DNA from: a virus
Taxonomy: Duplodnaviria; Caudoviricetes
DNA length: 54,435 bases
IMG/VR virus record: IMGVR_UViG_3300048577_000441
Location: 1 to 54,435 of that record
Direction: 5' to 3' (one strand)
Position 1 is the stretch's first letter, and each line of letters opens with the position of its first letter. The notes under the pieces were generated by a model that saw only the letters and a list, made by a program, of their open reading frames with translations, did no database searches and was not told where the DNA came from. Positions 1-13,480 of this stretch are shown here, one piece after another. The translations under genes were made by a program, and so were the position numbers.

Positions 1-741
1 TTGACCGCGTATCGCCGGCCCCCGGTTATTGAGAGCGTGATCGAGTTCCAAGTCGATCAGCCCGTCGCCGCCGCCGCACTGAACCGCCTGCGTGACCGTA
101 TCGCAGCGGACTTCTCGAATCGCGTCGACGAGCAAAACTTCAACGTCCACATTGACCCGGACGCCGGAACTATAAACGTCACCGCCGCCCAATCGAACAT
201 CAAGATGCTGGACGACAAGGGGGCGCACCTCCTCACCTTGAAGCCAGATATTATCAACTTCTCAAAGTTCGCCCCTTATCAAGGCTGGTCGGACCTTTCA
301 GGATTCGCGAGGAAATACTTCCCGATGTGGGTGGCCGAGGTGCGGCCAAAGGGAAGTGTCCAGCGTATTGGAATTAGGACTATCAATAGATTAGATATAC
401 CTGCGAAAGGTGCCGAGCCGTATGACCTCGATAAGTATCTTAACTTCACGTATCGCGCGCCGCAGCCGCCGCTGAATCCGAGTCTAACTTTCCTGGTAAC
501 AGTGGAGAGCTTCATCGGTGATAATGACGAATGTGGTGTTCGATACACATCGACTACCGCAGAATCGGCGCTGGTGGGTCACGCTAGTATTATCCTTGAT
601 TTGGACATCTATACTCGGGCGCCCATCGCAGTGGGTGACGAAGGTTTGTGGCCCCTTGTGGAGAGGATGAGGGATTACAAGAACGCTGTCTTTGAGGCGT
701 GCATTACCGACGAGGCGCGGGCTTTGTTCGGTCATGCTTGA
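1..741 (+). CDS. TIGR04255-family protein
   Basis: 246 aa. N-terminal Y-x-x-PP-V-IE-x-V-IE-F, central Y-x-GW, 'RIGIRTINRLDIP' and C-terminal 'ILDLDIY...KNAVFEACITDEARALF' match the family pattern as recalled. TTG start at the window edge. Confidence 0.8.
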   Translation: MTAYRRPPVIESVIEFQVDQPVAAAALNRLRDRIAADFSNRVDEQNFNVHIDPDAGTINVTAAQSNIKMLDDKGAHLLTLKPDIINFSKFAPYQGWSDLSGFARKYFPMWVAEVRPKGSVQRIGIRTINRLDIPAKGAEPYDLDKYLNFTYRAPQPPLNPSLTFLVTVESFIGDNDECGVRYTSTTAESALVGHASIILDLDIYTRAPIAVGDEGLWPLVERMRDYKNAVFEACITDEARALFGHA

Positions 742-1417
742 AGCACAAGTTCAGGCGGCGCCTGGGCGTCGGGGGGCGATAGATCATGCTTCATTCGGAT
801 CTAGCCGCGAGGCGAATCGAGTACTAAGGCAGCTTGAGCGGCGACCAACATCCGGGGATGTAACCAGTTTCTTCGAGGGTACATTAAAGGTACCTCCGAC
901 CGTCACGCAGCCCAACCGAAGGACCCGCCGGTCGAAGACTGGTTTGCCAGTGGGGCTGCACCGCTTTAGCTCACCGCGGCCATTGAACCTAAGGCTCGCA
1001 GAGCGGTCGCTTGCGCTCAAAATCACCCTGAACCAATTCGGCGCCTACCTTTCCGATGATTGGCGTCGGGGCTTGAACCGGCAATTGGATTTTATGCTCG
1101 ACTGCGAAGAGTGGCCTGCTGACGCTTTATTGCCCAGCCCCGACAGCTTTGCCGCTCTCCTTCGGTTAATCATCTATCTCAAGCCAATTAAGCGGCCAAG
1201 CTTGGGAGTCGCCGACGATGGACGTCTGGTCGCAGCGTGGGATTCAGAGGGTGCTCATCTCGTTGTACAGTGCAACGCTGGGGAGAGCGTGCGGTGGTCG
1301 TCGGTGCACATGGTGGATGGGCAAAGAGAAGTTAGTGCCGGGCAAACAACAATCCCTCGACTAATCGCCAATCTAAGCGCCTTCGAGCCGTCGCGATGGT
1401 TCGATTTGCATGACTAA
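734..1417 (+). CDS. Hypothetical protein (second gene of cargo operon; antitoxin/immunity-like)
   Basis: ATG at 734 overlaps the previous gene end. Basic low-complexity N-terminus; C-terminal 'EEW..DALLPSPDSF...RPSLGVADDGRLVAAW' domain. Confidence 0.7.
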   Translation: MLEAQVQAAPGRRGAIDHASFGSSREANRVLRQLERRPTSGDVTSFFEGTLKVPPTVTQPNRRTRRSKTGLPVGLHRFSSPRPLNLRLAERSLALKITLNQFGAYLSDDWRRGLNRQLDFMLDCEEWPADALLPSPDSFAALLRLIIYLKPIKRPSLGVADDGRLVAAWDSEGAHLVVQCNAGESVRWSSVHMVDGQREVSAGQTTIPRLIANLSAFEPSRWFDLHD

Positions 1418-1865
1418 GGATATTGGTGACGATCACCATGTTTTGAGGTGGGTGCCCAAGACGAAGCTTCGGCACGACCCTGACACTTTTGATGTCCTGG
1501 GCCCTCTCCCGATCGCATTTCGCCTACGGAAAGAGATCAACGAGGAATATCTGTCAGTGAGCTGGGTTGAGCATGCTTCTGGTTCCTACAGCGAGCAGCT
1601 CGAACGCACGGCCAAGTTACTCGCGAAGCAGGTGAAAGCGACGCCGACCAAAGGGGGAGCTTTTGCAGAAGGTGCAGCCGGCGATATCCGTAAGGCATGT
1701 GCCGACCAGAGCGGTGTGAAAGTGCGGATCTGGGCGACCCCCACCGGTAAGTCCCCTGCCTACGGCAAAGTGTACGGCATAGAAGCTGATGATGAGAGCC
1801 TGCAGGCGGTCCTTGCCTATGGCTGCTGGGGGAAAACCCACCTAGCGAAGGATGTTCTTGAGTAG
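1410..1865 (+). CDS. Hypothetical protein, possible ADP-ribosyltransferase-like fold
   Basis: 151 aa, overlaps the upstream stop. Motif order 'VLRWV', 'AFRLR', 'YLSVSW' resembles the ART strand-1 Arg and S-x-S motif. The ORF is solid; the fold call is tentative. Confidence 0.6.
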   Translation: MTKDIGDDHHVLRWVPKTKLRHDPDTFDVLGPLPIAFRLRKEINEEYLSVSWVEHASGSYSEQLERTAKLLAKQVKATPTKGGAFAEGAAGDIRKACADQSGVKVRIWATPTGKSPAYGKVYGIEADDESLQAVLAYGCWGKTHLAKDVLE

Positions 1866-1867
1866 TG

Positions 1868-3028
1868 TCATTCCCGCGCTTCCGCTCGGAGACCCTCCGA
1901 GTGGGTATCCGGCGGACTGCTAATCAGGCCCCGTTTGCGCTGCGCGTTCCAGGCGACCTGGTTGTCGCGCGGCAGGTACTTGCGCAGGATCTGCTCCACC
2001 GAAAACGGGCTGTGGCCGGTCACCGCGGCGATTTCCGGGACGGTGCAGCCGGCCCGGGCCTGCTGAACGACACAGGAGTGGCGCAGGGCGCGGAGCTGCA
2101 ATTCTGGCCGGGTGCGGATGGCGGCGAAGACATGGCCCAGGCGCTGCTCGGCCCAGGGCTTGCCCGTGGCGGCGTCGGTGAACAGGTAAAGGCTGTCGGT
2201 CGGCGCGACGGTATCCAGCAGGCCCCGCAGGTCGTCGCTGACCGGCACGGTGACGTGGGCGCGGGTCTTGGACTGCCAGAAGCGGAACAGGCCCTGGCGG
2301 GCGTCGTATTCGCCGCCGCGCCGGAACAGGCGCAGGTCGGTGACCCGCTGGCCGATTTCCCAGTTGGTGAGGATCATCGCGGCGATCGAGGGCTGGCCGG
2401 CCATGGCGCAGGCCCAGGCCTCACGGCGGGCGTCCTCCCATTCCCAGATGGTCAGCTGGCTCTCCGGCGCGGCCATCTTGATCCGCTCGGCCGGGTTGTC
2501 GGTGCGCCAGCCGAGGGCGATGGCGTGATCCAGCAGCATCTTCAGGACGATTTTGACGTGCCGGCGCGTGGTCGGCCGATCATCGTACAGGGCCAGAAAG
2601 GCCTCGATCGCGTCGCGGGGCAGGCCTGAGACCGGGCGGTGGCCGTTGGCGGCCGACCAGTCGAAGATCAGGCTGGCGTGGTAAGCGTAGCCCTGCTGGG
2701 TGCGCGGCTTCTTTGCCTTGAAACCCTGGCTGGTCTGCCACTCGCGGATCAGGCGGCGGAAGTCCCGGCCGGTGGCCTCGGGCGCCGGGCCGCCGAGCCT
2801 GGCCTGCTGCAGGCGGACGTAGAGGGCCTGGGCGTCGTCGCGGATCCGCGCCACCTCGCCCAGGTCAGAGAGGTCACCGGTGCGGGCGCCGTTGATCGGC
2901 AGGGGGATCGCCGCCGACCAGCCGGAGGGGCGCAGCCGGGCGGGCACCTCCATCAGGACGCGATAGGTCCCGTCCTTGCGCCGGCGCAGGGTGACGTATC
3001 TTCCGAGCTCGAGCGCGACGGATGGCAT
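1868..3028 (-). CDS. int: Tyrosine recombinase / phage integrase (start 3028 or 3052)
   Basis: GQR (catalytic R), QSKT (K), LRALRHS, TGH and KYL (catalytic Y); upstream core-binding domain 'PRTQQGY...DNPA'. Confidence 0.92.
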   Translation of the reverse strand: MPSVALELGRYVTLRRRKDGTYRVLMEVPARLRPSGWSAAIPLPINGARTGDLSDLGEVARIRDDAQALYVRLQQARLGGPAPEATGRDFRRLIREWQTSQGFKAKKPRTQQGYAYHASLIFDWSAANGHRPVSGLPRDAIEAFLALYDDRPTTRRHVKIVLKMLLDHAIALGWRTDNPAERIKMAAPESQLTIWEWEDARREAWACAMAGQPSIAAMILTNWEIGQRVTDLRLFRRGGEYDARQGLFRFWQSKTRAHVTVPVSDDLRGLLDTVAPTDSLYLFTDAATGKPWAEQRLGHVFAAIRTRPELQLRALRHSCVVQQARAGCTVPEIAAVTGHSPFSVEQILRKYLPRDNQVAWNAQRKRGLISSPPDTHSEGLRAEARE

Positions 3029-3269
3029 CGGGGTCTGCGGTCCAGGTTTCATGGGTCGGCGCATCCTTGACCAAACGGAAGGCTTTGAGAACGGCGTCCC
3101 GGTCGAACATCGTTGATCGGCCCAGCTGGACAGGGGACGCAGGGAGCCACGTGGGGTCCTCTCGCCGCTTGCGGGCTAGTCGGCTCGGGCTGCAGCCCGC
3201 GAGGGCGCAGACTTGGCGGGTCGTCAAGCGCAGCGGAAGGGCGATGTCATCAAGACCAGGATTCGTCAT
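2874..3269 (-). CDS. Excisionase-like / AlpA-MerR-type wHTH protein
   Basis: 'LTTRQVCALAGCSPSRL...LGRSTMFDRDAV' directly upstream of and overlapping int. Confidence 0.7.
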   Translation of the reverse strand: MTNPGLDDIALPLRLTTRQVCALAGCSPSRLARKRREDPTWLPASPVQLGRSTMFDRDAVLKAFRLVKDAPTHETWTADPDAIRRARARKIRHPAPAQGRDLSRPDGGARPAAPLRLVGGDPPADQRRPHR

Positions 3270-3295
3270 GGGAGAATCGCGCCACGTTCAACCGC

Positions 3296-3886
3296 ATGAA
3301 CGACTGTCTCTTCGCTTGGCAAACCGGTTGTGTGCTCGATAGCGACACGTCGGCTGCCTGGGCACAGGCCTATCTTAGTGCCTTGGCAATTCTGGCTGCT
3401 TGGCTCTTTCAGTGGGCGGTCGAGCGGCGGCGGCATCGTCGCGAGTTCCAAAGAGAGATGGTGGCTCTGCAGAGCTTGGTTGCTAGCTTGATTGGTCATG
3501 TCCGTGCCTGCCATGCTGGGGCAACCTCGCACGATGTCGGCGTCGATGGCCTCACCATCCTCGTGCCGGCTCTTAACGCCGAGGCCGAGGCAGTTGGATT
3601 GATCTCGATCCAGCGACTCGAGGACGTTGAGGTGGCCACACACTTCACGCAACTTCGGGTCGGCTTGAAGGTCCTCTCCGCAGTGCTGAATGAATCCGTG
3701 GCCACCCGCCACCTTGATGATGGGTTGCTCGGCGAGGCGTTCTTGCTGGTGATTCCACCACTGAGGGCGCTCGGGTTTCGCGAGGACGGAAGTTGGATTT
3801 CGACTCCGGATAGAATGGATGAGGCCGACCGGGATCTCAAAACTGCACTTGAGTGGGCTAGAGCGGCAGCCGGCGAGAGTAGCTGA
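3296..3886 (+). CDS. Single-TM membrane protein (antisense moron, paralog A)
   Basis: MNDCLFAWQTGC..DS..SAAWAQA followed by a hydrophobic helix and RRR; AT-richer; opposite strand to its neighbours. Confidence 0.7.
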   Translation: MNDCLFAWQTGCVLDSDTSAAWAQAYLSALAILAAWLFQWAVERRRHRREFQREMVALQSLVASLIGHVRACHAGATSHDVGVDGLTILVPALNAEAEAVGLISIQRLEDVEVATHFTQLRVGLKVLSAVLNESVATRHLDDGLLGEAFLLVIPPLRALGFREDGSWISTPDRMDEADRDLKTALEWARAAAGESS

Positions 3887-3894: not shown

Positions 3895-4404
3895 TCATGA
3901 CTCCGCCAACGGCTTAAGATGCCCGTTCCCTAGAGGATCGAGACCTCGGTCGCTTCGCCATTCGGCGACTGAGCTGTCGCCGTCCAGGACCACGCGGGCG
4001 GCCATGACGGCAGTCTGGACGGCTTCCTTGCGGACGTTGGCGGCGGGTTCATCCAGGATGGCCTTGGCCAGCTCGCCGAACTCCTCGGCCAGAGCGATGG
4101 TCATGATCCGGTCGCCGGGGAACTTGGCCCGAGCGCGGACTAGCTCGACCCGAACTTCAGCCAGGAAGGCGTCCACATCGGCGTCCTCCAAGCCGTCAGC
4201 CATTAACGGTCCTAGGGGTCGGGTCGCGCCGCCGCGTTCATTAACTGGGTTATGTGGCGCTTGCGCTGCGGTTCTAGTGAGCTCCGCCGCGGCACTCTGG
4301 ATGATTTCCTTTGCGAGCGCTGCCTCGCTGGGGGTGAGGGGTTCCAGCTTGCCGAGCCGCTCGCGCAGCTGGCGGAGGCTGGAGATTAGATCAAGCGCGC
4401 TCAT
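3895..4404 (-). CDS. MazG-like nucleotide pyrophosphohydrolase domain protein
   Basis: 'ALAEEFGELAKAILDE...VRKEAVQTAVMAAR' matches the EExGE...E-x-x-Q all-alpha NTP-PPase signature. Confidence 0.7.
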   Translation of the reverse strand: MSALDLISSLRQLRERLGKLEPLTPSEAALAKEIIQSAAAELTRTAAQAPHNPVNERGGATRPLGPLMADGLEDADVDAFLAEVRVELVRARAKFPGDRIMTIALAEEFGELAKAILDEPAANVRKEAVQTAVMAARVVLDGDSSVAEWRSDRGLDPLGNGHLKPLAES

Positions 4405-5003
4405 GTGGTGGTCTCCCGCAACACCTGTCGCTTCCCAGTGATGTCGGCGTGGCTGACGATGCCCTGGGCTTGCATGCGCTCGACGAGCGCTGCAGCGCGG
4501 TTGTAGCCGACCTGCAGCTTGCGCTGGACGTAGGAGGTCGACGCCTTGCCGTCGCGCCGAACTAGGGCGACGGCCTGGTCATAAAGCGCGTCCTCCTCCG
4601 GAACGCCGCGGACCATCCGTTCGGCGGCGGCCAACTGGTCGGGCGTTCCAGTGACCGACTTTCCGCCGGCCATGGTCAGGGTGATGCTGGTGATCCCCTC
4701 GTGCTCGCTGGAGCTCGCCCTCTCAAACAACGGCAGCTCGCCAAGGGCCGACAGGTAGAGGTCCATGAGGGCGTCCTCCTCCTGCTGCTTTGCCCGATCT
4801 TGTTTGCGCCGGCGGATCACCTTGCGGAGGATCTTCACGTCGAAGCCGTTGCCCTTGGCCTCGGCGAACACCTCCTTGATCTGCTCCGCGACCTCGGCCT
4901 TCTCGACCTCGAGGCGCTCTATCCGCTCGACGATGCTCTTCAGTTGGCCCTGGGCTGTCATGTTGAGCGGGTCTGCGCCGCTGTTGTCTCCGATGTCGGC
5001 CAT
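4401..5003 (-). CDS. gapR: GapR (DUF2312) nucleoid-protein domain fused to a C-terminal FtsK gamma wHTH domain
   Basis: N-terminal 'QLKSIVERIERLEVEKAEVAEQIKEVFAEAKGNGFDVKILRKVIRRRK...DLYLSALG' is GapR-like; C-terminal 'DALYDQAVALV...ASTSYVQRKLQVGYNRAAALVERMQAQGIVS..GKRQVL' is FtsK gamma. Confidence 0.9.
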   Translation of the reverse strand: MADIGDNSGADPLNMTAQGQLKSIVERIERLEVEKAEVAEQIKEVFAEAKGNGFDVKILRKVIRRRKQDRAKQQEEDALMDLYLSALGELPLFERASSSEHEGITSITLTMAGGKSVTGTPDQLAAAERMVRGVPEEDALYDQAVALVRRDGKASTSYVQRKLQVGYNRAAALVERMQAQGIVSHADITGKRQVLRETTT

Positions 5004-5005: not shown

Positions 5006-5224
5006 CTAGGCGCACTCCGAAATGAGTTCGTTGAGGATGTCGCGGGCCTTGGTGAGGGCCTCGCGGCGGGAGTTGGTCGGGATCTCGCCGAGGGTCACGC
5101 CTGGGCAGACGGACGAGGCCTGCTTGAGCTGGCGGCCCCAGGCGGCCATCTCGGCCGGCAGGTCGATGGCGGCCAAGCACAGGGCGGCGGCGAGGCGCTG
5201 GCGGCGGTCCAGGAGGTCCGTCAT
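5006..5224 (-). CDS. Hypothetical phage protein
   Basis: 72-aa ORF packed against the next gene in the leftward operon. Confidence 0.6.
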   Translation of the reverse strand: MTDLLDRRQRLAAALCLAAIDLPAEMAAWGRQLKQASSVCPGVTLGEIPTNSRREALTKARDILNELISECA

Positions 5225-5849: not shown

Positions 5850-6215
5850 TCAGCATGGGCTTGATCTCTCAAAATCGAAGTACCGCACAGACGGCGCAGG
5901 GCGCGGGAGACGGGGCTCGTGGCCCAGGACCTGGTTCAGGCGGGCGAGCTCGGTCTCGCCGCGGGGGAGGAGGTGGAAGACCTTGCCGTCGCGGCCGATC
6001 AGGCCGGACCGCTCCAGCTCGGTGATCAGGGACCAGAGCTTCTTGCGCCGGTTGGCGGGGACCGGGTCGGCGAGGCCGACGGCGTCGGCGATGCGGCGGA
6101 AGTTCCCCTCGCGGTGGGCGAGGTTGGCCAGGATCTTGTGGGTGCGCCCGCCCGGCGTGAAGTTGCAGGCCAGGGGCATGGTCGCGCGCTGGCGAATGGC
6201 ATGGGTGGTCGCCAT
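5850..6215 (-). CDS. Winged-helix DNA-binding protein
   Basis: 'ILANL...FRRIADAVGL...LITELERSGLIGRDGKVFHLLPRG' wHTH pattern; GAGGAG RBS. Confidence 0.65.
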   Translation of the reverse strand: MATTHAIRQRATMPLACNFTPGGRTHKILANLAHREGNFRRIADAVGLADPVPANRRKKLWSLITELERSGLIGRDGKVFHLLPRGETELARLNQVLGHEPRLPRPAPSVRYFDFERSSPC

Positions 6216-6226
6216 GGCTGGGCTCC

Positions 6227-6553
6227 TCAGTGAAGGTGGGCGGGTCGGGCCTGCGCCTGGTCCAGGGCCTGCAGGGCCTCGGGGGCGAACAGGGCCAGGG
6301 CCTGGCGCAGGGCGTCGGCGCGCTCGGCGCAGCCCGCGCAGGATTTGCCGGCGGCGGTGCGCTCCTCGATCGCCGTGGTGAGAAGGGCCGAGGCCACGGC
6401 CTCCAAATCCTCCACCGAGCAGCTGGAGCCGGACCAGTAGATGTGCCGGGTGGTGTCATCGGCGGCGATGGTGGCCACCACGGCCGGGGCGTCCCGCAGA
6501 ACCCGGGAGACGTCTTCGGAGGCGCGATTGCACACGTCGTTCTGGATGGTCAT
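6227..6553 (-). CDS. Hypothetical phage protein (CxxC)
   Basis: ATG at 6553 (MTIQNDV...), in the leftward operon, high-GC3 codons. Confidence 0.6.
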   Translation of the reverse strand: MTIQNDVCNRASEDVSRVLRDAPAVVATIAADDTTRHIYWSGSSCSVEDLEAVASALLTTAIEERTAAGKSCAGCAERADALRQALALFAPEALQALDQAQARPAHLH

Positions 6554-6659
6554 CGGTCGGCTCCGGCGGGGGTGGCGATAGACGGGCAGGGCGGGGCGGT
6601 GGCCCGGCCGCAGGCGAAGGCCGTGGCGTAGGCGGCCACGGAGATGAGGAAGCAGGCGG

Positions 6660-6980
6660 TCAGGACTGAGCCGCGCACGGGACGCCTCCGGCCGTGCGGA
6701 TGGGAACGACCCGTGGGTCGGCCCGCATCGCCTCACCGATCCGCAGGGCGGCGCGGTAGTGGAAGAGGCCCCGCAGATAGGCGTCGCGGGCGCTGACGAA
6801 GGCGCTGCGGGCGACCCGCAGATGGCCGGCGGCCATGTGCTCCTCGCCCGCCGCCGTCTCGGCCTCGCCGCAAGTCCGCCACAGGTCGAACTCGGCCAGG
6901 TGCCACCGCTCGACGTCGGCCAGGTCCAGCTGGACGCGGCCGCCGACGGTGGCGAGCCGGATCATGGGGGCGGCGTTCAT
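6660..6980 (-). CDS. Hypothetical phage protein
   Basis: ATG at 6980 (MNAAPMIRL...) with GGAG RBS. Confidence 0.55.
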   Translation of the reverse strand: MNAAPMIRLATVGGRVQLDLADVERWHLAEFDLWRTCGEAETAAGEEHMAAGHLRVARSAFVSARDAYLRGLFHYRAALRIGEAMRADPRVVPIRTAGGVPCAAQS

Positions 6981-7077
6981 GGCCGCGCTCCCGCGATCAT
7001 CTGGCGCAGGTGCGCCAGCAGGGCGTCCAGCTGCGCCGGCGTCATCAGGTGCTGCGGGGTCGGGACGGGGACGGCGT

Positions 7078-7362
7078 TCACCGCCCCGCCCTCCGGTCGA
7101 TGGCGGCCAGCTGGCGGTCGATGTCAGCCACCAGGCTGCGGGCCCGTTCCTTGAGATCGAGGTCCACGCCGGGCAGGGAGACCAGCTCGGCCCCCTCGGC
7201 GGCGACCTCGCGCAGGGCGGCCAGCCAGGCCAGAGCGGCCTCGCGGCCGGCGGCCTCCATCTGGGCCTGGAGCGCTTGCGACCGGGCGATGGCGGCACGG
7301 GGGGAGTTCGCCGCGCCAGCGCGGTCGCCAAAGCCGGGGCGAAGGATTTCGGGACGGGACAT
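7078..7362 (-). CDS. Hypothetical phage protein
   Basis: 94-aa helical ORF starting 3 nt after the upstream stop. Confidence 0.6.
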   Translation of the reverse strand: MSRPEILRPGFGDRAGAANSPRAAIARSQALQAQMEAAGREAALAWLAALREVAAEGAELVSLPGVDLDLKERARSLVADIDRQLAAIDRRAGR

Positions 7363-7365
7363 GGA

Positions 7366-8022
7366 TCAGGCCTCCATCAGGGCGCCGGCCGCCTGGGCCG
7401 GGGTCGGGGCAGGGGCGCGCACCGGCTCGGCGAACCGGTAGAGGGCCACAGGCATGTGGTTCATCACCGAGCGGCGGACGATGCGCGGGGGATTGGGGGT
7501 GTGGACGGCGGCCACGGCGGGCGCCTCGTAGTGGGGATAGGCGGCGGTCGCCCGCCAGGGGGACACGACGACCCCGAGGGCCGGGCCCCGACCGGTGCAG
7601 AGGAAGACGTCGCCGGGCTGGGCGGCCTTCTGCAGGTTGGTGTCGGTGGCGGTGGCGACCAGGCTGAGCCCCCAGGCCTTCACCAGCCCCTCGAACGGGG
7701 TCGGATCGTAGCGGGCCTGTTCGGCGCCATAGCCGGCGAGGTCGCTGATGGGCTGGGGCTGGGCCAGGATACCTTCATGGGCGCCCGCCGCCGCGGCGGC
7801 CCAGTCGACGGCGGCCTGAACGCAGGCGCGCACCAGCCCGATCTCGTCGAACAGGTCGGGACCGCGGCCCATGTGCTGGTAACCGACGCCGGTGGCGCAG
7901 ATCAGGGCGGCGGCCTGAACCATGACCTCGGCGCGGGACCGGGCCCCGCGCATGACCGGATGGCCTAGATCGACGCGCCAGGCGTCGTAGTCTGGAAGCG
8001 GTTGGCTGTGAGCGGCGTGCAT
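7366..8022 (-). CDS. Hypothetical phage protein, first gene of the early-left operon
   Basis: 218-aa ORF directly downstream of the OL operators; GAGGGA RBS. Confidence 0.65.
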   Translation of the reverse strand: MHAAHSQPLPDYDAWRVDLGHPVMRGARSRAEVMVQAAALICATGVGYQHMGRGPDLFDEIGLVRACVQAAVDWAAAAAGAHEGILAQPQPISDLAGYGAEQARYDPTPFEGLVKAWGLSLVATATDTNLQKAAQPGDVFLCTGRGPALGVVVSPWRATAAYPHYEAPAVAAVHTPNPPRIVRRSVMNHMPVALYRFAEPVRAPAPTPAQAAGALMEA

Positions 8023-8046
8023 CTCGATCCCTCTTTGAGACCGAGC

Positions 8047-8087
8047 ATGACAAAACGTGCTATCCTAGGCAAGCACAATATGTGCTT
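8047..8087. promoter_or_regulatory. OL/PL-like region: two 15-bp repressor operators
   Basis: ATGACAAAACGTGCT (8047-8061) and palindromic AGCACAATATGTGCT (8072-8086); the same motif recurs between cI and cro. Confidence 0.8.
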
Positions 8088-8092
8088 ACAGC

Positions 8093-8626
8093 TCAGGGGT
8101 AGCGAGGGAAGCGGATGATTGTGTCCCGTGCGGAGCTCAGCGAACGCTCCCGCCGAGCGCATAGCTCAAGGAGTGCGGAAGCCTGGTCCTCGGATATCTC
8201 GGGGCACGCGACCGCTTTGCGGAGAAAGGCGCACTCGCCCTCGTGCTCACGCGAGACGTCCTCATAGAGTTCCCACGAACTAAGGCGCATCGCCGAAAGA
8301 ACGGTCCTGTTCCACTGGGCCATGTCGACCACGCCGGGATGTAGCGCCGCGCGGCCGCCAGTGCTTACGAACATTGTTCGGCCGGCCATTGCGCCGTAAG
8401 CGTTCTTTGCATTTACCTCACCGCAGACCGTGCGGCGGTCGGCCGTGACCGAGATATCCGCAAATTCCGCCGAGCCGGGGTCTCTCAGTAGGCCGCGCAC
8501 GGCCGCTTTGGCCAAGCGGATAGCGTTGGGCTCAGTTCCGGGCATCAATCCAAGCATGTAGGCCCCGCTGGCGGCTATTGCCGCCACGAGCAATGCCGCC
8601 GCCAGTATGATCGGCCCGCGCCTCAT
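8093..8626 (-). CDS. Exported / membrane-anchored protein co-transcribed with cI
   Basis: N-terminal hydrophobic segment and 'LRDPGSAEF...VCGEVNAKNAYGAMAG' motif; ATGA overlap with the cI stop. Confidence 0.75.
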   Translation of the reverse strand: MRRGPIILAAALLVAAIAASGAYMLGLMPGTEPNAIRLAKAAVRGLLRDPGSAEFADISVTADRRTVCGEVNAKNAYGAMAGRTMFVSTGGRAALHPGVVDMAQWNRTVLSAMRLSSWELYEDVSREHEGECAFLRKAVACPEISEDQASALLELCARRERSLSSARDTIIRFPRYP

Positions 8627-9213
8627 CGCGGTGTCATGCTCTTTACGCGGGCGGCCCAGAGAACTTCTTGGTCAAATATGGGTTCTTCATTGTTGGACAG
8701 AAGATGAAAGTGGTGGGGCAGCGCAGCGGGCTTGATCTTCTTTACCAGTATTCGATCATCAGGAAGGCCGACGACGCAAAGGCGGCCAAACAGATCGGAC
8801 GTGACCGGGGATCGCACGTCGTCATAGTAGATGAGCCAACTTTCGAACAGTGGGCCCAAGCTGTCCCCGCGAACCTCCACGGCCACGGTTGCTGCGGTGG
8901 ACTCATGAGGCGCATCAACCTCCCCAAGGCCCCCGTCGCCAGCTGCGTAATAGTGGGCCTGAGCTCCAGCGCCCACGTAACCCACCAGAGGGACAGTTGG
9001 CGGGGGCGCCGCACTTTCGTCGCCAAACTCGAGCGCAGCCGGGTTGAACCCTAGGGCGACCGCAATGCGTTGGACGTCGTCCCTGGTCGGCTCGGTACGG
9101 CCACGCTCCCACGACGACACTGTCGTCTGCCCGGCCCCGACTTTCTCGCCGAGCTTCCCCTGCGACCATCCCGCCGCCCGGCGGGCCTTTGCAATGCGCT
9201 CGCCTATCCCCAT
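8623..9213 (-). CDS. cI: CI-like repressor (HTH_XRE + S24 autopeptidase)
   Basis: HTH 'IAKARRAAGWSQGKLG...TTVSSWERGRTEP', A-G site 'VGAG', catalytic 'VRGDS' and 'LVKK'. Confidence 0.9.
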   Translation of the reverse strand: MGIGERIAKARRAAGWSQGKLGEKVGAGQTTVSSWERGRTEPTRDDVQRIAVALGFNPAALEFGDESAAPPPTVPLVGYVGAGAQAHYYAAGDGGLGEVDAPHESTAATVAVEVRGDSLGPLFESWLIYYDDVRSPVTSDLFGRLCVVGLPDDRILVKKIKPAALPHHFHLLSNNEEPIFDQEVLWAARVKSMTPR

Positions 9214-9248
9214 GGCCGGAAGCTGCCAATCGACCGCATAGGGGTCGA

Positions 9249-9324
9249 ACGACAATTTGTGCTTGGCAGCAGCACAAAATGTGCTCACAATTTCAGGCAT
9301 GCGCACTCACCGACAAATCGTGCA
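9249..9324. promoter_or_regulatory. OR-like region: three 15-bp operators
   Basis: ACGACAATTTGTGCT (9249-9263), AGCACAAAATGTGCT (9271-9285), CCGACAAATCGTGCA (9310-9324). Confidence 0.78.
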
Positions 9325-9544
9325 GGAATTTGGTGCTGCCGCCCTCGTTAGGGCGCTGGCGGACCAGGGCCTAATCGTCCACCAGACCACGCCCCAGCGA
9401 TGGGCCGACCGGGATTCCATACCCGGGGAGTACTGGGGCCAGCTTGTCGAGCTGAAGGCTGCCACCCTGGAAGAGCTTGCCCAGGCGGCGGAGCGCAGGA
9501 GATTTCCGCCCCGGACGGGCCCGCCTGAGGCGATGGCCTCATGA
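9299..9544 (+). CDS. cro: Cro-like HTH protein
   Basis: Divergent from cI; 'IVQEFGAAALVRAL...TTPQRWADRDSIPGEYW'. Confidence 0.8.
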   Translation: MRTHRQIVQEFGAAALVRALADQGLIVHQTTPQRWADRDSIPGEYWGQLVELKAATLEELAQAAERRRFPPRTGPPEAMAS

Positions 9545-9854
9545 GCGCGCAGCCGAACAGACCGCAAGGGTGGGCCATCAGCGGCCGCGCCGTTGGTGTC
9601 GGACCAAAATCCATAAGGGCAGGGGGCGCAGCAGTAGCGCGTCGTCATCGCCCGTTCTCCGGGTCTCGTTGTTTGTTGCCCGCCAGGGTCACGGCGCGAG
9701 CCCGGGCTGTCAAGTCATGGCCCCAGCGAGGCGACCCCGGCTGACGGCGGTTGCGCACCGCCGCGGCAGAACGGCGGGCGCCCACAAGCACATCGAGAAC
9801 TCCGGCGTCGGCCCTTTTCGGCGCCTTCAGTCAACCACGGGGAAGGGGGGCGGC

Positions 9855-10532
9855 ATGGCCAGCCACCAGGACGGCGCCTCTGTCGGCGTCGGAGATGAAG
9901 CGCCGAACGGTCGCCATGGCGGCTGGACGGACGCGCGCGTCGCGCAGCTGAAGACGCTGTTCGCTGAAGGCCTGCCGCCGAGGGAGATCGCCCGGCGGCT
10001 GGGCGGCGTCAGCAAGAACGCCGTCATCGGCAAGTGCAATCGGATGGGGCGGAAGGCCAGCGACAACGCCCCGGCCCACGTCAAGGCCAAGCGAGGCCCT
10101 GCGCCCCGGGTCCCGGCGGCGAAGCCGGTGCGGCTGGTGCTGAACGCCAGCCAGAAGGCTTCGCCTGGCCAGAACCATGCCTGGCGGGCGGGGCCGAGCA
10201 CTGAGGCCAAGCCGTTGCCCGAGATGGGGCCGCAGGATCTTCCAGGCATGCGGCCGGCGCAGCTGCGGGATCTGAACAGCCGCCAGTGCCGCTGGCCGCT
10301 GTCGCTGACGCCGGACATCCCCGGGCGCATGGACGAGACGCTGTTCTGCGGCGCGCCGGCCCCCGGTCTGGGCCAGGATGAGCCGCCCTACTGCCCCGCC
10401 CACGCCCAGATGGCCCACCCCAAGGGCGGCCAGCAGGCCCGCGAGAACCTGGACCCCCGCCTGGGCATCGCCCCGGGTAAGGCGTCCTACAATTTCGACG
10501 ACCGGCGCGCCCCGCGCTTTGGGGGGCGGTGA
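9855..10532 (+). CDS. gcrA: GcrA-family cell-cycle regulator homologue
   Basis: 'WTDARVAQLKTLFAEGL..REIARRLGGVSKNAVIGKCNRMG' and C-terminal 'DLNSRQCRWP...FCG...PYCPAH'. Confidence 0.9.
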   Translation: MASHQDGASVGVGDEAPNGRHGGWTDARVAQLKTLFAEGLPPREIARRLGGVSKNAVIGKCNRMGRKASDNAPAHVKAKRGPAPRVPAAKPVRLVLNASQKASPGQNHAWRAGPSTEAKPLPEMGPQDLPGMRPAQLRDLNSRQCRWPLSLTPDIPGRMDETLFCGAPAPGLGQDEPPYCPAHAQMAHPKGGQQARENLDPRLGIAPGKASYNFDDRRAPRFGGR

Positions 10533-12469
10533 TCATGCCGCCGATCATGGGTGCGCCCCTGGCGCAAGCCGAGCTGATCGTGGACCTGTTCGCCGGTGGT
10601 GGCGGGGCCTCAACGGCCATCCTGAACGCCACCGGGCGTCATCCGGACGTGGCGGTGAACCACAACCCTACGGCCATCGGGGTGCATGAGGCCAATCACC
10701 CGACGACGCGGCACTACACCTGCGACGTGCGCGAGGTGGACCCGGTGGAGGCCTGCACCTTCGGCGGCGCGCTGCGCCCGGTCGGCCTGCTGTGGATGAG
10801 CCCGGACTGCACGCACTTCTCCAAGGCCCGCGGCGGCAAGCCGGTCGAGAAGGGCATCCGCAGCCTGGCCGATGTGGGCCTGATCTGGGCCGAAAAGGTC
10901 CGGCCGCGTCTGATCCACCTGGAGAATGTCGAGGAGTTCCAGGACTGGGGACCGGTGCTGGAGGACGGCAAGCCGTGCCCCGACCGCAAGGGCCTGGATT
11001 TCCGCCGCTGGGTGTCGCGCCTGGAGGCCCTGGGCTACCTGGTCGAGTGGCGGGAGCTGACGGCGGCCGACTATGGGGCGCCGACGACGCGCAAGCGCCT
11101 CTTCCTGATCGCCCGCAATGATGGCGAGCCGATCGTCTGGCCGGCGCCGACCCACGCCAGTCGAGCGACCCTGGCCAAGGGCGACCTCTTCGGCCGCGAC
11201 CTCAAGCCCTGGCGGTCGGCCGCCGAGATCCTGGACTGGTCGATCTCGACGCCGTCGATCTTCGACCGCAAGAAGGCCCTGGCCGACAAGACCCTGGCCC
11301 GGATCGCCAAGGGCGTCCGCCGCTTCGTGATCGAAAGCCCCGCGCCGTTCATCGTGCCGGTCACCCACGGCGGCGAGCGGCCGATCCATGACCTGGACGA
11401 TCCGCTGCGGACCGTCACCGGGGCGAACCGGGGGGAGCTGGCGCTTGCCAGCCCGCACCTGACGACGATCACCCATGGGACCAGTCCCGCCCGGGTCCAC
11501 GATCCCCGCGAGCCGCTGAAAACGGTGACGACGGCCAATCGCGGTGAGTTTTCGGTGATCGCCCCGACCCTGGTTCCCCGGTATGGCGAGCGCGAAGGCC
11601 AGGAGCCGCGGGCCCTGGACGCCGCCGAGCCCTATCCGACGGTGGTGCCGACCGGCAATGGCGGGGACCTGGCCGCCGTCTTCTTGCAGAAGATGAACCA
11701 GAACGGCGTCGGCGCCTCGCCAGACGATCCGCTGGTGACCGTCATGGCCGGCGCGCCTCGGCACTATGAGGTGGCGGCCTATCTCACCCGGCAGTTCGGC
11801 TCGACGGTGAGCGGCCGCAGCCTGGACGAGCCGGCGCCGACAGTGATGACGGACGGCGATGGCGGCAAGACCGGCGTCGTCGCCGCGTGCATCGACAAGT
11901 ATTACGCCACGGGCGTTCCCAGCGACCCCGCCGAGCCCCTGGACACCGCCACGGCCAAGGCCCGTTTCGGCCTGAACGCCGCCTTCCTGGAGCAGGCGAA
12001 CACCGGCGTCGTCGGCCATGCCGCGACCGAGCCGGTCTCAACCATCCTGGCGGCGGGCAGTCATCAGCGCCAGGTGGACGTCCGCCTCGAGGCGGTGGAG
12101 GCCCACGCCGGCCGCCGGCGCCGGCAAGTGCTGGAGTTCCTGTTCCACCACTTCGGCGAGCCGACCGAGAGCGAGTGGGCCGATCCGGTGGCTACACCCA
12201 CGGGCCGCCTGCGGTTCGGGTTGGTGATCCTAGCCGGGGCCGTCTGGCAGATCGCCGACATCGGCATGCGGATGCTGGTCCCGCGGGAATTGTTCAATGC
12301 TCAGGGATTTCCTGCGGATTACATCATCGACCGCACGGCCGCGGGCGAGGCCGTCACCAAGACCGCCCAGACCAGCATGGCCGGCAACAGCGTCAGCCCG
12401 CCGCCAGCCGAGGCGACGCTGCGGGCGAACCTGACCTGGATGACGCTGCCGGAGCGGAGGGCCGCATGA
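10529..12469 (+). CDS. DNA cytosine-C5 methyltransferase with repetitive central insert
   Basis: DLFAGGGG, SPDC, ENV, TxRKR and C-terminal GNSV motifs. Confidence 0.92.
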   Translation: MIMPPIMGAPLAQAELIVDLFAGGGGASTAILNATGRHPDVAVNHNPTAIGVHEANHPTTRHYTCDVREVDPVEACTFGGALRPVGLLWMSPDCTHFSKARGGKPVEKGIRSLADVGLIWAEKVRPRLIHLENVEEFQDWGPVLEDGKPCPDRKGLDFRRWVSRLEALGYLVEWRELTAADYGAPTTRKRLFLIARNDGEPIVWPAPTHASRATLAKGDLFGRDLKPWRSAAEILDWSISTPSIFDRKKALADKTLARIAKGVRRFVIESPAPFIVPVTHGGERPIHDLDDPLRTVTGANRGELALASPHLTTITHGTSPARVHDPREPLKTVTTANRGEFSVIAPTLVPRYGEREGQEPRALDAAEPYPTVVPTGNGGDLAAVFLQKMNQNGVGASPDDPLVTVMAGAPRHYEVAAYLTRQFGSTVSGRSLDEPAPTVMTDGDGGKTGVVAACIDKYYATGVPSDPAEPLDTATAKARFGLNAAFLEQANTGVVGHAATEPVSTILAAGSHQRQVDVRLEAVEAHAGRRRRQVLEFLFHHFGEPTESEWADPVATPTGRLRFGLVILAGAVWQIADIGMRMLVPRELFNAQGFPADYIIDRTAAGEAVTKTAQTSMAGNSVSPPPAEATLRANLTWMTLPERRAA

Positions 12470-13040: not shown

Positions 13041-13480
13041 AGGTCGAAGAGTATCGCGCCCTGCAGGCGCAGAAGCCCCGACGCAATGACGATCCCGAGC
13101 ACCAGTTTCAGTGCGCGGTGGTACTCGGGCTGCACGAGGTGCTGCCGCCGCAGGTGCGCTGGACAGCCAACGCCGCCGGCGTGCGGGTGACCCCGGCCAC
13201 AGCGCGGAAGATGAAGGAGGCCGGCGTTCAGCGCGGCTGGGGCGATCTGCAGTTCCTCTTCCCCGACCTGATCACCCGCTACATCGAGTTGAAGCGCGGC
13301 GCCGTGCTCAGCGCCGAACAGAAGGGCTTCCGGGCGGCCTTCGAGCCCATGGGAATCTGGGCCATCGCCCGGACCTGGGACGAGGTGGAGGAGCCGCTCG
13401 CCCGGTGGTGCGAGGCCTGCCGCCTGGTCCTTCGCCCCCTGCATCCCATCACCCGCCAGCGTCTGAGGGCCTTCGCATGA
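13037..13480 (+). CDS. VRR-NUC-like PD-(D/E)xK nuclease
   Basis: 'EHQFQ...GVQRGWGDLQF...YIELK..AVLSAEQKGF'. Confidence 0.8.
   Translation: MKVEEYRALQAQKPRRNDDPEHQFQCAVVLGLHEVLPPQVRWTANAAGVRVTPATARKMKEAGVQRGWGDLQFLFPDLITRYIELKRGAVLSAEQKGFRAAFEPMGIWAIARTWDEVEEPLARWCEACRLVLRPLHPITRQRLRAFA

What the first reader, a model, noticed from the sequence alone, without database searches (positions are those of the whole stretch)
4401..5003. Phage GapR fused to an FtsK gamma (KOPS-reading) domain
Seen: a single 200-aa ORF with an intact GapR-like N-terminal half and an intact FtsK gamma motif (S..QRKLQVGYNRAA) at the C-terminus, with no motor domain. Known: GapR oligomers encircle overtwisted DNA and stimulate gyrase/topo IV in Caulobacter; FtsK gamma binds GGGNAGGG KOPS to orient the translocase. 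Inference: GapR oligomerisation would make gamma multivalent. The result could be a KOPS-targeted nucleoid protein that blocks host FtsK loading and division, poisons host GapR through mixed oligomers, or recruits topoisomerases to phage DNA.
Basis: partly seen in the sequence, partly recalled or inferred. Interest (0 to 1): 0.8.

Follow-up and report, generated by a model that had tools for sequence, protein, structure and literature searches.

The report
Phage GapR clamp fused to FtsK-gamma

Summary
Window 4401..5003 (-) encodes a 200-aa protein with an intact GapR domain (res 17-88), a flexible linker that holds a small beta-hairpin/helix module, and an FtsK gamma winged helix (res 136-195). 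There is no motor domain.

The gene sits in the leftward early operon of a lambda-like prophage, between the repressor and the integrase. It is not an artefact. 91 of the 120 best database hits carry both domains. So do 87 of the 150 best 50%-identity cluster representatives, 44 as GapR-gamma and 43 as gamma-GapR. One isolated phage, Ruegeria phage 45A6, has the reversed form.

Both modules look like host genes. The GapR module is up to 91% identical to stand-alone GapR, and gamma is 70-75% identical to Phenylobacterium-type FtsK gamma. DNA-contact residues are conserved in both modules.

"KOPS-reading" is not shown. Two of the three E. coli KOPS-recognition residues differ, and GGGNAGGG is not enriched in the phage.

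My best reading is a GapR-type tetrameric clamp with four tethered gamma heads that anchor or load it at host-type guide motifs during early phage development. The function is inferred, not tested. My literature searches found no description of this fusion.

The parts
4401..5003 (-). Whole gene, 200 aa (P0001): GapR module, linker with a beta-beta-alpha module, FtsK gamma module
4740..4955 (-). GapR_DNA-bd domain, res 17-88. The predicted helices H12-51, H56-67 and H70-86 reach a little beyond it.
   Evidence: Pfam; same coordinates; PDB GapR chains E 7.4e-38; AF2
4722..4733 (-). PLFE motif (res 91-94) directly after the GapR domain, in a low-confidence linker. It is conserved in most forward-order relatives. 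Role unknown.
   Evidence: alignment rows; pLDDT <50 at 94-101
4605..4697 (-). Small beta-hairpin + helix module (res ~103-133; E107-110, E116-119, H121-131). It is optional in the family and matches no known family.
   Evidence: AF2; own HMM census (53 of the 91 two-domain proteins have it); hhalign against the FtsK pre-gamma region gave no homology
4419..4598 (-). FtsK_gamma winged helix, res 136-195 (H136-151, H156-163, H167-179 and the wing with G190-K191-R192)
   Evidence: Pfam; PDB; Foldseek; 39/56 identical to P. terrae FtsK gamma
5006..5224 (-). Upstream 72-aa ORF of the same operon, no family hit. Its stop lies 2 nt before the target's ATG.
3895..4404 (-). Downstream 169-aa ORF whose start overlaps the target's stop (ATGA). 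It matches phrog_30401 (unknown function) and is possibly MazG-like (a lead only).
8623..9306 (-). CI-like HTH repressor at the head of the leftward early region
1868..3064 (-). Tyrosine integrase at the end of the leftward operon

Best explanation
What it is (shown): an early-operon accessory protein of a temperate, lambda-like siphovirus whose host is probably Phenylobacterium or a close Caulobacterales relative. A host-like GapR module is tethered by a roughly 45-residue linker to a host-like, motor-less FtsK gamma winged helix.

How it most likely works (inferred). The GapR module assembles into the GapR-type tetramer (dimer of dimers) that encircles DNA. This puts four gamma heads on flexible tethers around the ring. 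The heads make additional, sequence-selective DNA contacts of the kind the host FtsK gamma makes with its guide motif. In FtsK, three gamma domains on one motif nucleate ring loading. By the same logic, the gamma heads would load the GapR clamp at such motifs, or hold it there, while the phage early genes are expressed.

The likely use is control of DNA topology for phage replication and transcription through the host type II topoisomerases that GapR stimulates. This step, and whether the target DNA is phage or host DNA, are not shown.
For: 1. Both modules are intact and host-like.
- GapR: E 7.4e-38 to solved Caulobacter GapR in an ungapped alignment. All 8 DNA-contact residues are kept (7 identical, K59->R), as are E28, R65, D68, Y82, G87 and E88 (PMC7498317 and PMC7373187 passages).
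- The GapR module is 91% identical to a stand-alone GapR (P0084) and 85-87% to others. It is at most 82% identical to the GapR module of any other fusion.
- Gamma is 70% identical to P. terrae FtsK gamma and up to 75% to FtsK proteins. The model superposes on KOPS-bound gamma at 0.4-0.6 A.

2. DNA-binding positions of gamma are as conserved in 91 distinct fusion gammas as in 83 distinct FtsK gammas: Q160 1.00/1.00, R161 0.98/1.00, N168 0.97/1.00, E175 0.90/0.96, G190 1.00/1.00, R192 1.00/1.00.

3. The link between the two domains is selected for.
- 91 of the 120 best hits have both domains.
- 87 of the 150 best 50%-identity cluster representatives have both, 44 in the order GapR-gamma and 43 in the order gamma-GapR (Pfam check of 14 of them).
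- The reversed form occurs in an isolated phage.

4. Natural motor-less proteins with 3 tandem gammas (3 of 150), 2 tandem gammas (11 of 150) and gamma-gamma-GapR (2 of 150) exist. This points to multivalent DNA binding, as in FtsK, where three gammas bind one KOPS (PMC5052618 passages).

5. Position. The gene lies in the early or replication module in the window and in 8 other loci. A DNA methyltransferase lies close by in 5 of the 8, a primase or O-like initiator in 4 of the 8, and an integrase further along the same strand in 3 of the 8 and in the window.

6. Stand-alone GapR genes are common in phages. 152 phage records match P0001, several only over its gamma domain; the GapR-only matches include lytic Caulobacter and Brevundimonas phages.
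Against: - No binding, oligomer state or phenotype was measured.
- In this protein, two of the three E. coli KOPS-recognition residues differ (A172 and Q178).
- GGGNAGGG is under-represented in the phage (12 against 20.6 +/- 4.4). Its 11:1 strand bias is no greater than that of other G-rich octamers (p = 0.15). The phage DNA therefore shows no sign of being a preferred target of a canonical KOPS reader.
- The motif that the host FtsK reads is unknown.
- Several positions that are invariant in FtsK gamma are relaxed in the fusions: R150 0.58, Y167 0.76, R169 0.56. The gamma function may therefore have drifted.
- No neighbouring gene is conserved that would point to a pathway.
- The gamma surface that binds DNA also binds XerD (PMC5052618), so conservation cannot separate the two roles.
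Confidence: 0.5

Rival explanations
1. Host take-over factor aimed at the host chromosome. The ring with its gamma heads occupies the host's FtsK guide motifs. It may also co-assemble with host GapR. This would block FtsK loading or translocation, late chromosome segregation and division, or divert host GapR, while the phage grows.
For: - Both modules track host genes. The GapR module is closer to stand-alone GapR (91%) than to any other fusion's GapR module (at most 82%). Gamma is as close to FtsK gamma (75%) as to any fusion gamma (73%).
- FtsK gammas lie interleaved among fusion gammas in the tree. Rhodobacterales FtsK groups with the Mameliella and Ruegeria-phage fusions (SH-aLRT 93). The window's nearest rows by path are Phenylobacterium-type FtsK.
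- The R1300-equivalent residue follows the host clade: S or A in Caulobacterales-type sequences, R in Rhodobacterales-type sequences.
- At 79-91% identity to host-type GapR, mixed tetramers are plausible.
- The gene lies in the leftward early operon. In lambda this region holds host-interference genes such as kil and gam (recalled, not from a call).
- GGGNAGGG is less dense in the phage (0.22 per kb) than in a Phenylobacterium genome (0.36 per kb).
Against: - There is no phenotype data.
- In E. coli, the FtsK variant with the three KOPS-recognition residues replaced still supports XerCD recombination on plasmids (PMC2680272 passages). Blocking the motifs alone may therefore do little.
- The density difference is small (12 observed against about 19.5 expected at host density).
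- Host-likeness can also come from shared structural constraint or from a need to work with host topoisomerases.
- Many lytic phages carry plain GapR. This argues for a role that helps the phage rather than a poison.
Confidence: 0.2
2. Xer activator or decoy. Gamma acts as a protein-binding module that switches on, or titrates, host XerD away from the septum. Possible uses are resolving or rearranging circular phage or host DNA, or disturbing chromosome dimer resolution. GapR would supply DNA tethering and multivalency.
For: - Isolated gamma, a covalent gamma trimer, or a 9-residue peptide (E. coli 1289-1297, RQFRIGYNR) is enough to activate XerCD-dif recombination (PMC3130261 and PMC5052618, passages read).
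- The window protein has RKLQVGYNR at that place, with the critical R1289 kept as R161. R161 is 0.98 conserved across the fusions.
Against: - Within that 9-mer the fusions are relaxed exactly where FtsK is invariant: R169 (=R1297) 0.56 against 1.00, Y167 0.76 against 1.00, position 165 L 0.54 against I 0.96.
- XerD of the stand-in host genus has A-A where E. coli XerD has E183/E184, the partners of R1289. The E. coli interface therefore cannot simply be carried over.
- No dif-like site was found in the phage: 1 match with up to 2 mismatches to CATAA-N6-TTATG against 2.0 expected, and its flanks are not dif-like.
- The phage has its own integrase.
Confidence: 0.12
3. Phage transcription factor. 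A GapR-type ring acts on phage promoters, with gamma as the sequence-specific HTH. The precedent is the proposal that the T4 late-transcription protein DsbA is a GapR homologue.
For: - PMC7824862 (passage read) states that T4 DsbA is a homologue of the GapR family and is predicted to form a ring on dsDNA.
- GapR itself affects transcription (abstracts of PMC13408042 and 10.64898/2026.01.13.699244 in the listing).
- phrog_639 'transcriptional regulator' matches the GapR part weakly (E 0.0041).
- 5 of the window's 12 GGGNAGGG sites lie at 6584-9847, around the immunity region.
Against: - The gamma domain is host-FtsK-like rather than phage-specific.
- The motif cluster lies in the most G+C-rich part of the window (0.741 at 6001-8000) and was noticed post hoc.
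- No operator-like repeats were examined.
Confidence: 0.1
4. Assembly artefact, or a decaying chimera of host gapR and the 3' end of ftsK.
For: No public run that could be laid holds the window's own stretch. The best shares 16% of the sampled words, so the junction could not be checked in reads.
Against: - The frame is intact, with coupled start and stop.
- The same architecture, with a homologous linker (68-72% identical to P0002-P0015), occurs in 91 of the 120 best hits from several sources, in viral contigs and in a cultured phage.
- hhalign finds no FtsK-derived sequence upstream of gamma.
Confidence: 0.01

Closest known systems
GapR (UPF0335/DUF2312; Caulobacter CCNA_03428; PDB 6CG8, 6JYK, 6OZX)
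   Same: The N-terminal 90 residues align without gaps at about 80% identity. All DNA-contact and key interface residues are kept. The NCBIfam equivalog score is above the cut-off. The same three-helix prediction is obtained.
   Different: GapR is a stand-alone chromosomal protein of about 89 aa. Here the domain is phage-borne and carries a 110-aa C-terminal extension with a second DNA-binding domain. I64 of the open-tetramer interface is R here.
FtsK gamma subdomain (PDB 2VE8/2VE9, 2J5P; XerD complex 5DCF)
   Same: It has the winged-helix fold at 0.4-0.6 A rmsd. It is 70% identical to a Phenylobacterium FtsK gamma. R1289, N1296 and E1303 and the wing G-K-R are kept.
   Different: There is no 4TM anchor, no linker region and no alpha/beta motor, so it cannot translocate DNA. 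R1300 is A and E1306 is Q. Calling relatives 'cell division protein FtsK', as in Ruegeria phage 45A6, is a misnomer.
Motor-less FtsK_gamma proteins of phages, e.g. the gamma-small-terminase fusion of Bacillus phages Sam46/Sam112 (PMC8190038)
   Same: A host-derived gamma domain is grafted onto another DNA-handling phage protein. [quoted passage not shown] Several PHROG families hold gamma at different positions.
   Different: The partner domain here is a GapR clamp, not a terminase. The host clade is alphaproteobacteria.
PHROG phrog_4212 (function unknown)
   Same: The window protein matches it at E 2.1e-45 in two stretches. So do the fusion proteins of all 8 other loci examined. This is the existing database family for the fusion.
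   Different: In the profile, GapR sits at the C-terminal end (positions 271-351 of 353), which is the reversed order. The family carries no annotation.
T4 DsbA (proposed GapR-family homologue; PMC7824862)
   Same: It is a phage-encoded GapR-like dsDNA-binding protein, which shows that phages use this fold.
   Different: No gamma domain is described for it in the passage read. The similarity is remote and I did not test it here.

Membership tests
GapR (NF052541 / PF10073) | Sequence match above the curated thresholds | tested here: met
   PF10073 107.4 bits (cut-off 22.6). NF052541 145.1 bits (cut-off 140).
GapR (NF052541 / PF10073) | Basic residues that contact the DNA backbone (K34, K42, K49, K56, K59, K60, R63, K66) | tested here: met
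   7 identical and K59->R, from the ungapped alignment. The residue list comes from PMC7498317 and PMC7373187.
GapR (NF052541 / PF10073) | Residues of the dimer and tetramer interfaces (E28-R65, D68, Y82, G87, E88; hydrophobic V57, V61, I64, I78, L81) | tested here: met
   All are kept or conservatively replaced, except I64->R. E29, R66, D69, Y83 and G88 (P0001 numbering) are at least 90% conserved in 73 relatives. Tetramer formation itself was not tested.
GapR (NF052541 / PF10073) | Stand-alone chromosomal nucleoid protein of about 89 aa | tested here: not met
   200 aa, fused to another domain, and prophage-borne
GapR (NF052541 / PF10073) | Binds overtwisted or AT-rich DNA and stimulates gyrase and topo IV | not testable with these tools
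   Needs biochemistry
FtsK/SpoIIIE DNA translocase | RecA-type alpha/beta motor (PF01580, PF17854) and an N-terminal membrane anchor | tested here: not met
   No such Pfam hit at E<=1. True FtsK proteins found with the same query carry PF17854, PF13491, PF01580 and PF09397.
FtsK_gamma domain (PF09397) | Winged-helix sequence and fold | tested here: met
   86.7 bits (cut-off 30.6). Foldseek E 2e-5, TM by target 0.81-0.91, rmsd 0.4-0.6 A.
FtsK_gamma domain (PF09397) | KOPS-recognition residues of the recognition helix (E. coli R1300, E1303, E1306) | tested here: inconclusive
   The window protein has A172, E175, Q178, so 1 of 3 is identical. Host-genus FtsK has S/E/E. Fusion family: position 172 S 0.36 / A 0.29, E175 0.90, E178 0.89. 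The motif read in this clade is unknown.
FtsK_gamma domain (PF09397) | XerD-activating loop (E. coli 1289-1297, RQFRIGYNR, with R1289 critical) | tested here: inconclusive
   RKLQVGYNR is present. However, the family is relaxed at 3 of the 9 positions that are invariant or nearly so (0.96-1.00) in FtsK, and stand-in host XerD lacks E183/E184.
phrog_4212 (GapR + gamma phage proteins) | Profile match over both domains | tested here: met
   E 2.1e-45, 2 stretches

The most novel reading that the evidence does not exclude
Gamma would be a portable ring loader. In FtsK, three gamma domains on a guide motif nucleate the hexameric motor around DNA. Phages would have moved this loader onto a different ring, the GapR tetramer, and kept it matched to the host's own FtsK gamma. 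The result would be a sequence-addressed topological clamp placed on the host's chromosome-polarity motifs. There it could act as a roadblock to FtsK or as a beacon for gyrase and topo IV. The phage would gain a handle on host chromosome segregation, division and supercoiling. The natural triple-gamma and double-GapR proteins would be variants of the same toolkit.
Probability: 0.15. Interest if true: 0.8.

Novelty: new variant of a known kind. Interest (0 to 1): 0.55.

Why it matters
GapR is the only known protein that reads positive supercoiling by encircling DNA, and it is already used as a probe (GapR-seq). FtsK gamma is the textbook reader of chromosome polarity and the switch for XerD.

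Phages have joined the two repeatedly, in both orders, and kept each module close to the host version. This suggests that the two activities work together in a way not seen in cells. Possible forms are sequence-directed loading of a topological clamp, or interference with late chromosome segregation.

The family is large: 87 of the 150 best cluster representatives carry both domains. It gives a simple, testable system: a small soluble protein with two well-understood domains and available structures. It could show what motor-less gamma genes do in phages, a question stated as open in PMC8190038. It could also show why phages of alphaproteobacteria carry GapR at all.

Tried and rejected
1. The beta-beta-alpha linker module as a relic of the last strand and helix of the FtsK motor. 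By eye, 'LTMAGGKSVT' looked like 'LYMAGGGRIT'. BLASTP did not extend beyond gamma. hhalign of 48 module sequences against 7 FtsK pre-gamma regions gave probability 0.15%. Rejected.

2. The conserved PLFE motif after the GapR domain as a beta-clamp-binding motif. Complex prediction with P. terrae DnaN (a stand-in host) and res 76-135 scored 0.20 against a mark of 0.32. The tool's verdict was 'no answer', which is no evidence either way.

3. Independent origin of the reversed domain order. In both domain trees the starred branches force at least 2 changes. The AU test on the GapR tree does not reject a single clade (p = 0.157). Both alignments have only 60-77 columns. Unresolved.

4. A conserved partner gene. 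tblastn of 17 window neighbours against 9 fusion loci found only a C5 methyltransferase, in L005.

5. Canonical KOPS in the phage. It is not enriched, and its strand bias is not special.

6. A dif-like site in the phage. None is convincing.

7. att repeats between the two ends of the window. Only one 13-bp G+C-rich match was found, and there are no tRNA genes. The prophage ends were not defined.

8. Fusions in cellular genomes. 2 of the 80 kept genome-contig loci are full-length (L004, L005). The scan was swamped by host gapR. In 201 genomes of the family of P. terrae the best E was 6e-41, which is the level of GapR alone, so no fusion was found in those searched with this query. One of the 201 (G028) is flagged unpublished, and the statement does not depend on it.

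9. Longer forms. The best 120 hits of 351-2000 aa were true FtsK proteins plus a few GapR proteins with other domains. None had both domains. That search scored only the 8000 candidates sharing most words.

10. Reads. No RNA holder is listed, and no run holds more than 16% of the sampled words. The laid contigs covered only the conserved parts. One 410-nt contig of X2 spans 4495-4747 (linker to gamma) with 22 differences. The window's own junction could not be checked in reads.

Lowe 2008 and Sivanathan 2006 are not held, so the list of gamma-DNA contacts was not seen. Fig. 1C of PMC5052618 and all supplements were not seen either.

12. Foldseek did not return GapR structures for the helical N-terminal half. 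Its identity rests on sequence.
Full report
OBSERVATION

The minus-strand ORF 4401..5003 translates to a 200-aa protein, P0001.
- Pfam finds GapR_DNA-bd at res 17-88 (E 2.8e-31, 107.4 bits, cut-off 22.6) and FtsK_gamma at res 136-195 (E 8.6e-25, 86.7 bits, cut-off 30.6). None of the 5 families with E<=1 is a translocase motor.
- The NCBIfam GapR equivalog scores 145.1 bits against a cut-off of 140.
- The ATG at 5003 lies 2 nt after the stop of the upstream 72-aa ORF, and relatives start at the same place.
- The stop overlaps the ATG of the next ORF (ATGA, 4401-4404).

SETTING

The window is a provirus record of IMG/VR. PHROG and Pfam scans of my ORF picks give a lambda-like layout.
- Minus strand: integrase 1868-3064 and a CI-like HTH repressor 8623-9306, with the target between them in the leftward early operon.
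- Plus strand: a GcrA-like protein (9477-10532), a C5 and an MT-A70 DNA methyltransferase, small and large terminase, portal, protease, major capsid protein, tape measure (29279-33349), a J-like tail protein and an endolysin.
- No tRNA gene and no att repeat were found.
- The host is probably Phenylobacterium or a near relative. In the genome-contig scan, the GapR part is 74-80% identical to chromosomal gapR loci, most of which are titled Phenylobacterium.

THE GapR MODULE

P0001 res 10-90 align without gaps to Caulobacter GapR structures (6JYK and 6OZX, E 7.4e-38 and 4.5e-37). I used the residue lists in PMC7498317 and PMC7373187 (passages read).
- The eight residues that contact the DNA backbone (K34, K42, K49, K56, K59, K60, R63, K66) are kept: 7 identical and K59->R.
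- E28, R65, D68, Y82, G87 and E88 are identical.
- One hydrophobic residue of the open-tetramer interface (I64) is R.
- AlphaFold2 with 73 relatives gives the three GapR helices (H12-51, H56-67, H70-86), with block means of pLDDT 93-96 for res 21-60.

THE LINKER

Residues 87-105 have no predicted structure (pLDDT <50 at 94-101). A beta-hairpin plus helix follows (E107-110, E116-119, H121-131; pLDDT about 70-76).
- A PLFE motif directly follows the GapR domain in most forward-order relatives.
- The small beta-beta-alpha module is present in 53 of the 91 two-domain proteins among the first 120 hits (49 + 4). It can lie on either side of gamma.
- I found no family for it. hhalign rejected the idea that it is a remnant of the FtsK motor end.

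THE GAMMA MODULE
- phmmer matches E. coli and P. aeruginosa gamma structures (E 2.7e-15 to 2e-12).
- The model superposes on chains of 2VE8 and of KOPS-bound 2VE9 at 0.4-0.6 A over 56 columns for the best-ranked chains.
- 39 of 56 residues are identical to the gamma of Phenylobacterium terrae FtsK. Identity to FtsK proteins from the 'longer' search reaches 75%.

I mapped the E. coli numbering through the ungapped alignment.
- The 9-residue XerD-activating peptide 1289-1297, RQFRIGYNR (PMC5052618, passages and section 4 read), corresponds to RKLQVGYNR, with the critical R1289 kept as R161.
- The three residues changed in the KOPS-blind FtsK (R1300, E1303, E1306; PMC2680272) correspond to A172, E175 and Q178.
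- Phenylobacterium-type FtsK has S at the first of these. Rhodobacterales FtsK and the fusions that resemble it have R.

'KOPS-reading' in the E. coli sense is therefore not established, for this protein or for its host's FtsK.

THE FAMILY
- Of the 120 best hits of 110-350 aa, 91 carry both Pfam domains, 28 carry GapR only and 1 carries gamma only. That last one is a truncated gene call.
- My own domain HMMs split these hits as follows: 49 GapR-bba-gamma, 24 GapR-gamma, 14 gamma-GapR, 4 gamma-bba-GapR, 5 GapR-bba, 23 GapR only, 1 bba-gamma.
- A profile search of 1.84 billion 50%-identity representatives gave 212 proteins with E<=1e-30.
- Of the best 150, 87 hold both domains: 44 with GapR first and 43 with gamma first, two of the latter with two gammas.
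- The same list holds 11 proteins with two gammas, 3 with three gammas and 5 with two GapR domains. Pfam confirmed the 14 that I checked.
- Among 50,697 phage records, 152 match, mostly through one domain. None covers 80% of the query in one place.
- Ruegeria phage 45A6 has a 351-aa protein annotated 'cell division protein FtsK', with gamma at 141-198 and GapR at 280-350.
- In IMG/VR, 6 of the best 80 loci hold a full fusion. Four are in forward order and two are reversed.
- In cellular genomes the fusion is rare. 2 of the 80 kept loci hold it. None was found with this query in 201 sampled genomes of the P. terrae family. One of those genomes is flagged unpublished, and the statement does not rest on it.
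- PHROG phrog_4212 (function unknown) is the existing family for the fusion.

EVOLUTION
- The window's GapR module is 91% identical to a stand-alone GapR (P0084) and 85-87% to several others. It is at most 82% identical to the GapR module of any other fusion.
- The linker, usually the fastest-evolving part, is 68-72% identical to P0002-P0015. This is as much as the flanking domains.
- Gamma is at most 73% identical to another fusion's gamma, but up to 75% identical to FtsK.
- In the gamma tree (60 columns, weakly resolved), FtsK gammas lie among fusion gammas. Rhodobacterales FtsK groups with the Mameliella and Ruegeria-phage fusions (SH-aLRT 93). The window's nearest rows by path are Phenylobacterium-type FtsK.
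- In the GapR tree, forward fusions are interleaved with stand-alone GapR, and the starred branches force at least 4 changes.
- The reversed order needs at least 2 changes by starred branches. However, the AU test does not reject a single clade (p = 0.157).

I read this as one old fusion lineage, or a few, whose two end modules stay matched to host genes. The cause could be recombination or shared constraint. How often the domain order changed is not settled.

CONSERVATION IN GAMMA

I compared 91 distinct fusion gammas with 83 distinct FtsK gammas.
- Equally conserved in both: L140, Y141, A144, V148, S155, S157, Q160, R161, L163, G166, N168, A170, E175, E178, G181, G190, K191 and R192.
- Relaxed in the fusions where FtsK is invariant: R150 (0.58), A154 (0.78), T156 (0.68), Y167 (0.76), R169 (=R1297; 0.56) and M177 (0.80).
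- Position 165 is I at 0.96 in FtsK, but L at 0.54 in the fusions.

The recognition helix and the wing are therefore under FtsK-like constraint, while part of the alpha2-alpha3 loop is not. The XerD interface is a subset of the DNA interface (PMC5052618), so this leans towards DNA binding but cannot exclude XerD binding.

CONTEXT

tblastn of 17 window neighbours against 9 fusion loci found no conserved partner. The only match was a C5 methyltransferase in L005.

PHROG annotation of 8 loci places the gene in early or replication modules.
- A DNA methyltransferase lies close by in 5 of the 8 (L005, L095, L146, L122, L125).
- A primase or an O-like initiator lies nearby in 4 of the 8 (L146, L122, L125, L005).
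- ParB-like genes flank it in L092.
- An integrase lies downstream in 3 of the 8 (L004, L095, L146), as in the window.

MOTIF TESTS
- GGGNAGGG occurs 12 times in the window (expected 20.6 +/- 4.4), 11 of them on the plus strand. Other G6+A+N octamers are 74.6% on the plus strand, so the bias is not special (p = 0.15).
- A Phenylobacterium genome has 1502 sites in 4.2 Mb, against 1145 for the reversed control.
- No dif-like site was found.
- P. terrae XerD has A-A where E. coli XerD has E183/E184.

HOW IT MOST LIKELY WORKS

Shown:
- Two intact DNA-binding modules, each host-like, joined by a flexible linker.
- The gene lies in a phage early operon.
- The linkage is conserved in both domain orders.

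Inferred:
- The GapR module forms its tetrameric ring on DNA, which puts four gamma heads around it.
- The heads bind the motif class read by host FtsK. There they nucleate or retain the ring, much as three gammas nucleate FtsK on KOPS.
- The ring then acts through GapR's known effects on overtwisted DNA and type II topoisomerases, for the benefit of phage replication and transcription (confidence 0.5).

Rivals:
- The same machine aimed at the host chromosome, to block FtsK, segregation and division, or to trap host GapR (0.2).
- An activator or decoy of XerD (0.12).
- A transcription factor like T4 DsbA (0.1).
- An artefact (0.01).

WHAT IS KNOWN

Full-text searches found no paper that describes a GapR-gamma fusion. 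The search terms were:
- GapR+FtsK+phage (3 papers)
- DUF2312 (2 papers)
- UPF0335 (1 paper)
- GapR+Caulobacter+bacteriophage (19 papers)
- 'FtsK gamma'+phage (12 papers)
- GapR+nucleoid-associated+tetramer (22 papers)

I read passages of the relevant hits, not whole papers.
- PMC12185513 reports GapR in an Erythrobacter phage as a first.
- PMC7824862 links T4 DsbA to GapR.
- PMC8190038 describes a gamma-terminase fusion and says the role of phage gamma genes is unknown.
- PMC3706429 describes motor-bearing FtsK-like genes in Cluster J mycobacteriophages.

Subscription papers and supplements were not searchable. The fusion sequences themselves are in public databases under generic names.

VERDICT

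This is a real, widespread and uncharacterised phage protein family. It is a new variant built from two well-known domains. The 'KOPS' label and the proposed functions remain hypotheses. Interest 0.55.

Noticed in passing
window 9477-10532 (+), 10529-12469 (+), 13111-14127 (+): The first rightward gene encodes a protein with a GcrA cell-cycle-regulator domain (PF07750, E 4.6e-25, res 150-322). A C5 cytosine methyltransferase and an MT-A70 methyltransferase follow it. Together with the GapR and FtsK-gamma modules, the phage carries copies of several Caulobacter-type chromosome and cell-cycle factors.
   Followed up: no
window 8093-8626 (-): This 177-aa protein, next to the repressor, matches the C-terminal part of phrog_16400 (positions 197-269 of 272). 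The gamma domain of the target matches the N-terminal part of the same profile (positions 6-66). In other phages, gamma therefore seems to be fused to a relative of this neighbour.
   Followed up: no
window 3895-4404 (-): The gene translationally coupled to the target (169 aa, phrog_30401) has no Pfam hit. Its nearest ESM Atlas clusters are MazG-like (score 0.86, a lead only).
   Followed up: partly
proteins P0275, P0307, P0344 (3 gamma); P0308, P0321 (2 gamma); P0244, P0302 (2 GapR); P0258, P0272 (gamma-gamma-GapR); P0328 (T5orf172 + 2 gamma): Small motor-less proteins made of tandem gamma domains or tandem GapR domains exist in the public protein library. The triple-gamma ones resemble the engineered gamma trimer used in the Xer work. 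Their genomic origin was not examined.
   Followed up: partly
window 4722-4733 (-) and relatives (alignment A2): A short P-L-F-E motif follows the GapR domain in most forward-order fusions (variants PDLFD, PQYEMF). It is absent after the C-terminal GapR of the reversed-order proteins I read (P0056, P0065, P0083) and from stand-alone host-type GapRs such as P0090 and P0110, which end at GEI. Its role is unknown.
   Followed up: partly
window 6584-9847: 5 of the 12 GGGNAGGG sites of the window lie within 3.3 kb around the immunity region, all on the plus strand. This region includes the most G+C-rich stretch of the window, so the cluster may be compositional.
   Followed up: no
window 1-1865: The left end has a much lower G+C content (0.51-0.62 against about 0.69). 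Its three plus-strand ORFs match no Pfam family. It may be host flank or another island. No att repeat was found.
   Followed up: partly
L086 (G001 contig C81), about 950-1700: Two convergent ORFs, about 100 nt apart at their stops, both end in an FtsK-like C-terminus with a gamma domain. This is either a second FtsK paralogue fragment or a chimeric MAG contig.
   Followed up: no
L181:1486-2400 (-), P. terrae XerD: The XerD of this alphaproteobacterium has Ala-Ala where E. coli XerD has E183/E184, the residues reported as critical for activation by FtsK gamma. The FtsK gamma R1289 equivalent is nevertheless invariant in 83 alphaproteobacterial-type FtsK gammas.
   Followed up: no
L001 (Ruegeria phage 45A6, KT820175.1) 2569-3624: The gene annotated 'cell division protein FtsK' has no motor domain. 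It is a 351-aa gamma + GapR protein with an extra N-terminal region of about 140 aa that matches no family.
   Followed up: partly
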